Shown one piece after another: positions 38,214 through 39,856 of a stretch of 40,150 nucleotides of DNA (position 1 is the first letter of the stretch; each line of letters starts with the position of its first letter). Both the position numbers and the translations under genes were made by a program. Source of the DNA: a virus; the UHGV virus genome UHGV-0075716. One strand, written 5' to 3'. A model generated the notes under the pieces. It ran no database searches. It had not been told where the DNA came from and was given only the letters and a program-made list of their open reading frames with translations.

Positions 38214-38497
38214 TGGTCTCCTTCGCGAAATATACGATTATTGACTGGATAGCATTCATTCAGGTTTTGCTCATCTGGTTTTATATGGCTTACAGGAGTG
38301 GACAGTGGATTGTCAGTGTAGCCTGTAGCAATGGATGGCGTTGGTGGAACCGAAAGAATAAAAAAGCGCTGGCCTTGGCTTCGTTTTACGAAGCATTCAA
38401 TCTTAACAGTCTTCAGCCTGGTTCTGTCGTTGTAGTCACCACTCAAAGCGGCATGACGATACAAATTCACAAGCCAAAGGAGGAAGGTCGTGGCTAA
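38210..38497 (+). CDS. Hypothetical small membrane-associated protein
   Basis: 95 aa; GGAGG upstream; hydrophobic N-terminal segment. Confidence 0.45.
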   Translation: MMVSFAKYTIIDWIAFIQVLLIWFYMAYRSGQWIVSVACSNGWRWWNRKNKKALALASFYEAFNLNSLQPGSVVVVTTQSGMTIQIHKPKEEGRG

Positions 38498-38774
38498 CCT
38501 GCAACTTGCCGTTAAAGGTGAATACTTCGATGCCATGATTCGCGGAGAGAAAACGGAAGAGTATCGCCTGTGTAATGACTACTGGAATAAGCGAATTATG
38601 TTCCGCGAGTATGACCGCCTGATTATCACAAAGGGATATCCGAAGCGCGACGATTCCAGCCGCAGAATTGACGTCCCGTATGAAGGGTATGAAATCAAGA
38701 CAATCACACATCCGCACTTCGGCGATAAACCGGTAAAGGTTTACGCGATAAAGGTAAATATCGGCAATAAATAA
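38490..38774 (+). CDS. ASCH (PUA-like) domain protein
   Basis: 94 aa; GEKTEEYR fits the ASCH GxKxxExR motif; GTG start behind AAGGAGGAAG. Confidence 0.55.
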   Translation: MANLQLAVKGEYFDAMIRGEKTEEYRLCNDYWNKRIMFREYDRLIITKGYPKRDDSSRRIDVPYEGYEIKTITHPHFGDKPVKVYAIKVNIGNK

Positions 38775-38816
38775 CAATCCTCGCACTCGCGGGGATTTCT
38801 TTTATATGGGGATAAT

Positions 38817-39617
38817 ATGACCATCCACTTTCACGGCAGCCCAATATGGGGGGATGAGCATGCCCCTACAGATATGCTGATTAAAGCCCTTTACCGTGAT
38901 GGTGGGGCTTTTGTTTCATTTGCCAGACCAGAGCAGATGAAAAAGATTGCCATGTTCCCTTGTGATATACGCCTTGATAACGGCGCTTTTAGCGACTGGA
39001 TGAAAGCATTAAAGAAAGGCACTCCGGTAGACTGGAGTAAGAGACGAGCAAAATTCTACGACTTTGTTGGGAAGTGGTTCAGCAGAATTGAATGGTTTCT
39101 TATACCTGACGTTATCGAAGGGACAGAGGCAGAAAACGACGAGCAGATTGAGTGTGTTCCTGATTGGCTAAAATCAAAAGCGGTTCCTGTCTGGCATACC
39201 GACGAATCAATTGAACGTCTTTTACGCCTTTCTGGCAAATTTGAATGGGTGGCGATTGGATGCTGCGGCCCACACAGGCACATACGCTCTAAATGGTGGG
39301 AACAGAGAATGGATGAAGTTTTCACTGAACTTTATATCAATCGTAATTTGAAAGTGAAAATTCATGGTCTTCGAATGCTCGACGTGAGAGTTCTTGGTAT
39401 GTATCCGTTCGCCAGTGCGGATTCTACTAATGTTGCTGTTAACGTACCGAAGACAGAGAAGCGATTTCCTGAGATTACCGACAAACTGGCACGTACAGCT
39501 GTACTTCGCGCTGCTATTGAAAAGGTGCACCCGCCATCGATATCAGCATGGGTAGACAGAAAGATGAGAGAGCCGGCGCAAGCCGGTTTTTTATTTGAAT
39601 TCACCGACGCCGCTTAA
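38817..39617 (+). CDS. Hypothetical 266-aa protein; possible TGT/DpdA-like (tRNA-guanine transglycosylase fold) enzyme - low confidence on function
   Basis: ORF is solid; function guess rests on weak motif similarity (IHFHGSP, IRLDNGAFSD vs TGT LTDSGGFQ, EWVAIGCCGP, KIHGLRMLD, PFASADS) and alternating beta/alpha pattern. Confidence 0.55.
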   Translation: MTIHFHGSPIWGDEHAPTDMLIKALYRDGGAFVSFARPEQMKKIAMFPCDIRLDNGAFSDWMKALKKGTPVDWSKRRAKFYDFVGKWFSRIEWFLIPDVIEGTEAENDEQIECVPDWLKSKAVPVWHTDESIERLLRLSGKFEWVAIGCCGPHRHIRSKWWEQRMDEVFTELYINRNLKVKIHGLRMLDVRVLGMYPFASADSTNVAVNVPKTEKRFPEITDKLARTAVLRAAIEKVHPPSISAWVDRKMREPAQAGFLFEFTDAA

Positions 39618-39674
39618 TGCGGATTTCTTTTATCTGAACTCGCTACGGCGAGTTTTGTTTTATGGAGATGATAA

Positions 39675-39842
39675 ATGCACTTCCAAGTCACAGGTGAATG
39701 GAATGGAGAGCCATTCAACAGGGTTATCGAAGCAGAGAACATCAACGACTGCTATAACCACTGGATGATATGGGCGCAGATAGCGCATGCAGACGTAACC
39801 AATATTCGAATTGAAGAACTGAAAGAACACCAATCCGCCTGA
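39675..39842 (+). CDS. Candidate 55-aa protein
   Basis: GGAG upstream; MHFQVTGEWNGEPFNRVIEAENINDCYNHWMIWAQIAHADVTNIRIEELKEHQSA; stop lies inside a terminator hairpin. Confidence 0.4.
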   Translation: MHFQVTGEWNGEPFNRVIEAENINDCYNHWMIWAQIAHADVTNIRIEELKEHQSA

Positions 39843-39856
39843 TGGCGGTTTTTTAT
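39834..39856 (+). terminator. Rho-independent terminator
   Basis: CCGCC-TGAT-GGCGG hairpin followed by T7. Confidence 0.6.

What the first reader, a model, noticed from the sequence alone, without database searches (positions are those of the whole stretch)
38490..39617. ASCH (PUA-like) protein followed by a 266-aa protein with possible TGT/DpdA-like features
ORF 38490-38774 has the GxKxxExR motif of ASCH domains, which recognise modified nucleic acids. After a hairpin plus T-tract (about 38780-38807) comes a 266-aa ORF whose conserved-looking segments (IRLDNGAF, EWVAIGCCGP, KIHGLRMLD, PFASADS) loosely recall the tRNA-guanine transglycosylase barrel. If true, this would be a DNA or RNA base-exchange system (7-deazaguanine type) in the early-left operon, relying on host precursor synthesis. 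This is a hypothesis from weak motif similarity only.
Basis: inference. Interest (0 to 1): 0.55.

Follow-up and report, generated by a model that had tools for sequence, protein, structure and literature searches.

The report
Prophage DpdA-type DNA guanine transglycosylase gene
The 266-aa gene is a compact phage relative of the enzymes that swap guanine in DNA for 7-deazaguanine bases; it was already catalogued in a near-identical phage (HK106) but never tested, and the small ASCH gene in front of it is an unrelated neighbour.

Summary

The protein is 98.5% identical to HK106 gp29, listed as a 'DpdA-only' phage protein by Hutinet et al. 2019. No member of this lambdoid subgroup has been tested. 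The closest tested relative, Salmonella phage 7-11, has only trace dADG.

The ASCH gene is an independent mosaic neighbour. It occurs in about 2089 of 5426 complete E. coli genomes, the DpdA gene in 82, and the two together in 29. Modest interest.

The parts
38490..38774 (+). 94-aa ASCH-fold protein (PHROG 625). It is an independent mosaic gene of the lambdoid early-left 'ea' region and not a demonstrated partner of the next gene.
38776..38807 (+). Terminator-like hairpin plus T-tract. It is also the conserved left junction of the DpdA cassette.
   Evidence: Scan hit at 38776-38797 plus tail. The same sequence precedes the DpdA ATG in all close loci whatever gene lies upstream (at least 7 upstream contexts). 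It also ends ASCH genes in genomes that lack DpdA.
38817..39617 (+). 266-aa DpdA-family (TGT-superfamily) guanine transglycosylase, minimal form without a Zn subdomain. Predicted catalytic residues: D54 (38976-38978), D98 (39108-39110), H127 (39195-39197), H183 (39363-39365), D202 (39420-39422).
39567..39592 (+). G+C-rich hairpin plus T-run inside the last 50 nt of the DpdA ORF. The 11 C-terminal residues encoded here are predicted to be disordered.
   Evidence: Scan, 11 pairs. pLDDT is below 50 for residues 256-266. The last ~90 nt also occur in genomes without the gene (H149, H150).
39636..39662 (+). Terminator-like hairpin plus T-tract forming the right junction of the cassette.
   Evidence: Scan hit at 39636-39655. 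The sequence is conserved up to about here in all close loci, and different genes follow it.

Best explanation
The 266-aa ORF encodes a compact phage DpdA, a member of the tRNA-guanine transglycosylase superfamily that works on DNA.

Proposed mechanism, by analogy with bacterial DpdA and TGT:
- D202, at the end of strand beta8, attacks C1' of a target deoxyguanosine and forms a covalent enzyme-DNA intermediate.
- D54, at the end of beta3 in the DNGAF motif, acts as general acid/base.
- A free 7-deazaguanine base (preQ0 or preQ1) then replaces the guanine.

The prophage carries no preQ0 synthesis genes and no YhhQ-type transporter. The base must therefore come from the E. coli queuosine pathway (FolE-QueD-QueE-QueC, plus or minus QueF) or from host YhhQ uptake.

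The gene lies in the N-antiterminated early-left (PL) operon. It would be expressed after induction or infection and would modify replicating phage DNA after replication. The modification is probably sparse and limited to a sequence motif, and it would blunt restriction or other DNA-targeting defences.

The gene is a self-contained cassette bounded by conserved terminator-like hairpins. The ASCH gene upstream is a separate, much commoner cassette that happens to sit next to it in about a third of carriers.

Shown here: homology, fold, conserved catalytic residues, genomic associations, and absence of precursor genes. Inferred: the substrate (DNA), the base inserted, the extent of modification and the anti-restriction role.
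For: Family assignment:
- PHROG 887 'queuine tRNA-ribosyltransferase', E=3e-102.
- 98.5% identity to HK106 gp29. That protein is listed in the DpdA column of Supplementary Data 1 of Hutinet 2019.
- hhalign of the family profile against CAjan DpdA gives 95.4% probability, E=1.7e-8. CAjan DpdA is validated: deleting it abolishes dPreQ0 (PMC6884629).
- hhalign against an 8-member DpdA1 alignment gives 97.6%, E=2.8e-12. D54, D98, H127, H183 and D202 align to identical residues.
- Epa33 gp11 links the two families by plain tblastn (1e-27 to this protein; 9e-5 to CAjan DpdA).

Structure:
- AF2 model with pLDDT 90.1, pTM 0.87 and eight beta-alpha units.
- The invariant residues sit at the C-terminal ends of strands beta3, 4, 5, 7 and 8. 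This is where the bDpdA paper places Asp95, Asp130, His181, Leu236 and Asp256.

Link to 7-deazaguanine:
- A YhhQ/Vut_1 gene lies directly upstream in 21 of 79 viral loci and directly downstream in 1 more, and also in PEAT2.
- A QueD (PTPS)-DpdA fusion exists, P0315.

Link to DNA:
- In-frame fusions to Dam (P0006, L045, L048) and to a D12 N6-adenine DNA methyltransferase (P0245).
- DNA methyltransferases are recurrent neighbours.

Other points:
- No precursor or transporter genes in the window.
- An N antiterminator at 33028-33336.
- Purifying selection.
- ASCH is independent of DpdA.
Against: - There is no Pfam TGT, NCBIfam or PDB sequence hit. The validated CAjan DpdA has none either.
- The Zn site (CxCx2Cx22H) and the Ins8 insertion, which are conserved in bacterial DpdA, are absent. 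The residue equivalences rest on alignment and topology, not on a superposition I could inspect.
- The closest tested relative, Salmonella phage 7-11 (58% identical), carries only 50 dADG per 10^6 nt (0.02% of G). Another DpdA-only phage, Orion, has none (PMC6884629).
- Bacterial DpdA needs the ATPase DpdB, and no such partner is seen here.
- No experiment exists for this lambdoid subgroup.
Confidence: 0.65

Rival explanations
1. ASCH and the transglycosylase form a two-gene system. ASCH would read or further process the modified base, for example by hydrating preQ0-DNA to ADG-DNA as DpdC does in bacteria.
For: The two genes are adjacent and co-oriented in the window, in E. coli W and in 29 complete E. 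coli genomes. ASCH belongs to the PUA-like modified-base readers, and YqfB is an amidohydrolase. Phage 7-11 carries dADG with no known hydratase (PMC6884629). Epa33 has a weak ASCH-like gene three genes from its DpdA-like gene.
Against: ASCH is in about 2089 of 5426 E. coli genomes and DpdA in 82, and only 29 have them adjacent. HK106 and most close loci lack ASCH or keep only its first 11 codons. ASCH was upstream in 9 of about 32 close loci and in none of the more distant loci, which carry a VUT gene instead. No ASCH was seen near 7-11, PEAT2 or seven other homologues. A terminator-like junction separates the two genes. The Epa33 ASCH is unrelated to this one.
Confidence: 0.07
2. The enzyme modifies RNA, acting as a phage tRNA-guanine transglycosylase. 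It would change the queuosine status of host or phage tRNA to tune translation.
For: It belongs to the TGT superfamily. Databases name it 'queuine tRNA-ribosyltransferase'. Very little DNA modification is seen in 7-11 (PMC6884629).
Against: The tRNA-binding elements of TGT (the Zn subdomain and the beta-lid) are missing. The nearest sequence relatives are DNA-acting phage DpdAs. There are repeated fusions to DNA methyltransferases. E. coli already has Tgt. The database names derive from homology only.
Confidence: 0.1
3. The protein is Cap10-like or a counter-defence factor. It would bind or transfer a protein-linked 7-deazaguanine, or deplete free preQ0, to interfere with 7-deazaguanine-dependent immunity such as type IV CBASS or QatABCD.
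Against: There is no CD-NTase, Cap9 or QueC-like partner nearby. Association with a free-base transporter (YhhQ type) and with DNA methyltransferases points to free base plus DNA. Sequence relatedness is to phage DpdA rather than Cap10. No literature supports this role.
Confidence: 0.05
4. The protein is a decayed or repurposed TIM-barrel protein with no transglycosylase activity, carried passively in the variable ea region.
For: ea-region genes are dispensable. Two of about 32 close loci carry frameshifted copies, L062 and L063. Orion's DpdA gives no modification (PMC6884629).
Against: All catalytic-position residues are invariant across 40 sequences down to 44% identity. dN is far below dS. 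The family has 1847 clusters at 50% identity. The association with VUT is conserved.
Confidence: 0.05

Closest known systems
HK106 gp29 (YP_007151699) and the 'DpdA-only' gamma-proteobacterial phage group of Hutinet et al. 2019 (Salmonella phages 7-11, SE131, BTP1 and SPN3UB; SfI; Pectobacterium PEAT2)
   Same: 98.5% identical to HK106 gp29 and 58% to 7-11 DpdA. Same position near xis/int in the early-left operon. No preQ0 pathway genes in the phage.
   Different: Essentially nothing differs apart from the neighbouring genes: here ASCH is upstream, while HK106 keeps only an 11-codon ASCH stub. The group has been predicted only. 7-11 DNA showed just 0.02% dADG.
Phage DpdA1 (Escherichia phages CAjan and 9g, Mycobacterium phage Rosebush), validated dPreQ0/dG+ DNA transglycosylases
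   Same: Homologous barrel (hhalign 97.6%, E=2.8e-12). Identical residues at the five key positions. No Zn motif in CAjan DpdA either.
   Different: About 19% identity. DpdA1 is encoded together with folE-queDEC and modifies 25-30% of G. This protein comes alone and is about 40 aa shorter at the C-terminus.
Bacterial DpdA (S. Montevideo, PDB 7UI4), the preQ0 insertase of the Dpd restriction-modification system
   Different: bDpdA has 413 aa with insertions Ins1-3, the 128-residue Ins8 and a structural Zn site. It needs the ATPase DpdB and acts with DpdC-K. None of these is present here.
tRNA-guanine transglycosylases (bacterial TGT, archaeal ArcTGT, eukaryotic QTRT1/2) and CBASS Cap10
   Different: No Pfam PF01702 match. 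No Zn subdomain, tRNA-binding lid or C-terminal domains. The genomic context points to DNA.
ASCH domain proteins (E. coli YqfB ac4C amidohydrolase, E. faecalis 3IUW, P. horikoshii PH0355)
   Same: The 94-aa protein has the same small beta-barrel fold and the GxKxxExR motif.
   Different: 13-18% identity. Sub-threshold Pfam score. No substrate is known. It is a distinct lambdoid-phage subfamily (PHROG 625).

Membership tests
DpdA / TGT superfamily (7-deazaguanine transglycosylases) | (beta/alpha)8 TGT-type barrel | tested here: met
DpdA / TGT superfamily (7-deazaguanine transglycosylases) | General acid/base Asp after beta3, with an aromatic residue 4 positions later (bDpdA Asp95/Phe99) | tested here: met
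   D54-N-G-A-F58. D54 is invariant and F58 is conserved in at least 90% of sequences. It aligns to the D of LDSGAFS in DpdA1. Equivalence to bDpdA is by strand position, not by superposition.
DpdA / TGT superfamily (7-deazaguanine transglycosylases) | Nucleophile Asp after beta8 (bDpdA Asp256, TGT Asp280) | tested here: met
   D202-S203 are invariant, lie at the end of strand 200-203, and align to the CDSS motif of DpdA1.
DpdA / TGT superfamily (7-deazaguanine transglycosylases) | Base-recognition Asp after beta4 and His after beta5 (bDpdA Asp130, His181) | tested here: met
   D98 and H127 are invariant and align to identical residues of DpdA1 in the profile-profile alignment. With a single CAjan sequence, D98 aligned 3 residues off.
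DpdA / TGT superfamily (7-deazaguanine transglycosylases) | Structural Zn site CxCx2Cx22H (conserved in TGT and bacterial DpdA) | tested here: not met
   There is no conserved Cys, and only about 20 residues lie between D202 and the last barrel helix. The site is also absent from validated CAjan DpdA and from Cap10. It therefore does not define the phage branch.
DpdA / TGT superfamily (7-deazaguanine transglycosylases) | Match to Pfam TGT (PF01702) or an NCBIfam model | tested here: not met
   No hit at E<=1. The same holds for CAjan DpdA, 7-11 DpdA and other members, so the curated models do not cover phage DpdAs.
DpdA / TGT superfamily (7-deazaguanine transglycosylases) | Genomic link to 7-deazaguanine supply | tested here: met
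   The link is seen in relatives, not in this window. A YhhQ/Vut_1 gene is adjacent in 22 of 79 loci, and there is a QueD fusion. The window itself has none.
DpdA / TGT superfamily (7-deazaguanine transglycosylases) | Guanine to 7-deazaguanine exchange in DNA | not testable with these tools
   This needs LC-MS/MS or a [14C]guanine exchange assay. The only tested close relative, 7-11, shows trace dADG (PMC6884629).
ASCH domain (PF04266, PUA-like) | ASCH beta-barrel fold | tested here: met
ASCH domain (PF04266, PUA-like) | GxKxxExR motif | tested here: met
   G19, K21, E24 and R26 are invariant.
ASCH domain (PF04266, PUA-like) | Pfam gathering score | tested here: not met
   14.4 bits against a cut-off of 21.2, E=0.063, covering residues 6-28 only.

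The most novel reading that the evidence does not exclude
DpdA-only temperate phages such as this one do not bulk-modify their DNA. Instead, the stripped-down transglycosylase would serve another purpose that uses the host's queuosine precursors. It might mark a few specific sites, for example for packaging or for self/non-self discrimination. Or it might intercept 7-deazaguanine-dependent immunity (type IV CBASS Cap9/Cap10, QatABCD). That would explain the trace modification seen in 7-11 and the structural closeness to Cap10.
Probability: 0.1. Interest if true: 0.7.

Novelty: already known. Interest (0 to 1): 0.3.

Why it matters
If active, this cassette would let a temperate coliphage borrow the host's queuosine pathway to put 7-deazaguanine into its DNA without carrying any biosynthetic genes. 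The cassette is present in about 1.5% of complete E. coli genomes, including the laboratory strain W. It would be a very cheap anti-restriction device, spread by recombination at conserved hairpin junctions.

Whether 'DpdA-only' phages modify their DNA at all was left open in 2019. This prophage and HK106 offer a genetically tractable E. coli system to settle that question.

The new context found here sharpens the prediction but does not change the category:
- a YhhQ-type transporter gene is the ancestral partner and has been lost in the E. coli lineage;
- relatives are fused to Dam or D12 methyltransferases and to QueD;
- the ASCH gene is independent.

Tried and rejected
Searches that found nothing:
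- Pfam, NCBIfam and PDB sequence searches of the 266-aa protein, and a PDB search with its 40-sequence profile. The PDB profile hits were noise at E>1.
- A PDB sequence search with CAjan DpdA. I therefore could not obtain a bDpdA or TGT sequence for a residue-level alignment and relied on phage DpdA1 sequences instead.
- A PDB profile search for ASCH returned only chance hits.
- Literature searches for lambdoid or prophage DpdA tests and for DpdA/Cap10 links. The ASCH-plus-phage search gave nothing specific. The supplements of the 2023 paper are not held.

Tests that were uninformative:
- dN/dS could not be given as a number because synonymous sites are saturated.
- The profile search of 1.84 billion representatives gave the family size, but its top 150 hits (E<=1e-29) did not reach canonical TGTs.

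Hypotheses tested and rejected:
- ASCH as a functional partner, rejected on co-occurrence.
- The ASCH-like gene near Epa33's DpdA, which is unrelated to this ASCH (hhalign probability 0.4%).
- Hidden preQ0 pathway or VUT genes in the window: tblastn with the CAjan, PEAT2 and L006 proteins gave only E>0.2.

Full report
What is there. The window is a lambdoid, P22/HK-type prophage of about 40 kb. It is 100% identical over the region to E. coli O16:H6 CU37RT-2, where it sits next to torI and dsdC. The finding lies at the distal end of the early-left operon. Upstream are an N antiterminator (33028-33336; Pfam N_peptide E=2e-39), sieB, ral, recT, and DUF551 and DUF4752 'ea' genes. Downstream are a 55-aa ORF and the TorI-type excisionase. 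The hairpin plus T-tract between them is found at 38776-38797 plus tail.

The 266-aa protein. Pfam, NCBIfam, a PDB phmmer search and a PDB search with a 40-sequence profile give nothing. PHROG 887 'queuine tRNA-ribosyltransferase' matches over the full length at E=3e-102. Among phage records, tblastn finds HK106 at 98.5%, PEAT2 at 64% and Salmonella phage 7-11 at 58%, plus P22-like, Stx and many Vibrio phages. HK106 gp29 (YP_007151699) is listed in the DpdA column, with no other pathway gene, in Supplementary Data 1 of Hutinet et al. 2019. That paper's 'third group' comprises 76 phages that encode DpdA only. [quoted passage not shown]

I tested the homology independently in four ways:
- The family profile (A1) aligned to CAjan DpdA with 95.4% probability, E=1.7e-8. 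Deleting CAjan DpdA abolishes dPreQ0.
- The same profile aligned to an alignment of eight DpdA1 proteins (CAjan, JenP1/9g-type, NP1, BcepGomr, Vibrio 1.117.O, RHEph06, LizLemon/Rosebush-type, phiSM) with 97.6% probability, E=2.8e-12 over 162 columns. D54, D98, H127, H183 and D202 face identical residues.
- Epa33 gp11 is hit both by this protein (1e-27) and by CAjan DpdA (9e-5), so it bridges the two families.

Active site. Invariant residues in 40 sequences down to 44% identity include D54, N55, D98, H127, G148, G151, H183, R186, D189, D202 and S203. In the model they lie at the C-terminal ends of strands 3, 4, 5, 6, 7 and 8. The bDpdA structure paper assigns four roles. Asp95 is the general acid/base, with Phe99 four residues later. 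Asp130 and His181 read the base edge. Leu236 stacks on the base. Asp256 is the nucleophile. These positions are at the beta3, beta4, later-strand and beta8 ends, and the three Asp residues are invariant in TGT and DpdA. The spacing here (54/58, 98, 127, 185, 202) fits that pattern. This mapping is an inference from alignment and topology, not from a superposition.

The CxCx2Cx22H zinc site and the large Ins8 insertion of bDpdA are absent. Only about 20 residues separate D202 from the last helix. CAjan DpdA and Cap10 also lack the zinc site. Its absence therefore marks a minimal phage form rather than excluding membership.

Context in relatives. The family is large: 1847 clusters at 50% identity with E<=1e-3. 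I scanned 79 viral loci with locally built HMMs. A short VUT/YhhQ-type gene lies immediately upstream, often overlapping the start codon, in 21 loci. In 1 more locus it lies immediately downstream. All 22 are relatives of 40-87% identity. YhhQ is the E. coli preQ0 transporter (PMC5372724). The same arrangement is seen in PEAT2 and in L006. Several contigs carry in-frame DpdA-Dam fusions: P0006, L045 and L048 with complete Dam domains, and L047 with a partial one. P0245 is a D12 N6-adenine DNA methyltransferase-DpdA fusion, and P0315 is a QueD (PTPS)-DpdA fusion. DNA methyltransferases are also frequent neighbours. These associations tie the family both to 7-deazaguanine supply and to DNA as the substrate. 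The window itself has no FolE, QueD, QueE, QueC or VUT homologue.

Is ASCH a partner? No:
- By megablast, the ASCH gene is in 2089 of 5426 complete E. coli genomes. The DpdA gene is in 82, and a place covering both is in 29.
- Among about 32 close (98-100%) viral loci, ASCH precedes DpdA in 9. None of the more distant loci has it.
- HK106 and others retain only the first 11 ASCH codons fused to the hairpin.
- The 42-nt hairpin-containing spacer always travels with the DpdA gene whatever is upstream, across at least seven contexts. The same hairpin also ends ASCH genes elsewhere. A second conserved hairpin (39636-39662) closes the cassette.
- These are the usual recombination junctions of lambdoid mosaics. 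With N present, they would be read through after induction; that last point is an inference.

Mechanism and likelihood. I consider homology to DpdA near certain (about 0.95). That the protein is an active guanine-exchange enzyme is likely, given the invariant catalytic residues and dN of about 0.10 against saturated dS. DNA is the favoured substrate, given the methyltransferase fusions, the DpdA1 affinity and the loss of tRNA-binding parts. Which base is inserted cannot be read from sequence. In E. coli, VH7D DpdA2 inserts mainly preQ1 and nt-1 DpdA2 inserts preQ0. The extent is probably low. Phage 7-11 carries only 50 dADG per 10^6 nt, and low rates are reported for bDpdA and DpdA2.

Rivals are a tRNA target, a Cap10-like or counter-defence role, an ASCH-DpdA pair, and an inactive relic. 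They are listed with their tests. None is favoured by the data.

Novelty and interest. What remains open is experimental: whether DpdA-only temperate coliphages modify DNA at all. I found no paper that addresses this. The additional observations here refine the picture without changing the category. They are the VUT partnership, which is not recorded for PEAT2 in the 2019 table, the fusion architectures, the cassette junctions, the independence of ASCH, and the gene's presence in E. coli W. I rate the finding as already known and of modest interest.

Noticed in passing
L037-L046, L050-L058, L061, L071, L072; L006:3540-4004; L002:3537-4004: A short (~155 aa) VUT/YhhQ-like gene is the direct neighbour of the DpdA homologue in 22 of 79 viral loci: directly upstream in 21 and directly downstream in 1 (L071). 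The two genes often overlap. The 2019 catalogue lists no YhhQ for PEAT2, so this transporter-DpdA module seems under-recorded. The E. coli 98-100% clade has lost it.
   Followed up: partly
P0006 / L006:4001-5383, L045:5001-6377, L048:5001-6704; P0245; P0315 / L009:2840-3847: Domain fusions of the DpdA-like barrel: C-terminal Dam (PF05869), N-terminal D12 N6-adenine DNA methyltransferase (PF02086), and N-terminal QueD/PTPS (PF01242).
   Followed up: partly
window 38776-38807 and 39618-39662: The DpdA gene is a cassette bounded by conserved terminator-like hairpins that share the string GGATTTCTTTTAT. At least seven different upstream genes abut the same left junction in other prophages, including an 11-codon stub of the ASCH gene (as in HK106).
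   Followed up: partly
window 39528-39617: The last ~90 nt of the DpdA ORF contain a strong hairpin plus T-run (39567-39592) and encode a disordered tail. This segment also occurs in E. coli genomes that lack the rest of the gene (H149, H150), which suggests deletion scars or a shared junction.
   Followed up: no
L008:4001-4810 (E. coli CP057104) and L098:4001-4840 (Klebsiella): More distant homologues (44% identity) sit in the late region, between a holin-like gene and the endolysin and just before the terminase, rather than in the early-left operon. DNA methyltransferases (ParB_N-N6_N4_Mtase, MT-A70) are nearby.
   Followed up: no
L062:4959-5797, L063:4007-4845: Two otherwise 99%-identical copies are split into two ORFs. 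They are likely frameshifted pseudogenes or sequencing errors.
   Followed up: no
L097:3004-3729 and L102:769-1440 (Pseudomonas phage Epa33): The Epa33 DpdA-like gp11 is followed by a 696-aa C5 cytosine DNA methylase and, two genes further on, a 223-aa protein with a weak ASCH-like N-terminus (Pfam E=0.009). That protein is unrelated to the window's ASCH (hhalign probability 0.4%).
   Followed up: yes
window ~34170-34380 (L004:1687-1887) and 33358-34089: The same early-left operon encodes a Ral-family restriction-alleviation protein and SieB. The prophage would therefore carry two different anti-restriction devices if the DpdA is active.
   Followed up: no
NZ_CP026085.1:1440658-1441458 (H128): A RefSeq record labelled E. 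coli 'DH5alpha' carries this prophage gene at 99% identity. That is unexpected for a K-12 derivative. The strain may be mislabelled or a lysogen.
   Followed up: no
window 39675-39842: A 55-aa acidic ORF (PHROG 676, E=3e-38) lies between the DpdA cassette and torI. It resembles lambda's lambdap35 according to the HK106 annotation, it has its own terminator-like hairpin at 39835-39848, and its function is unknown.
   Followed up: no
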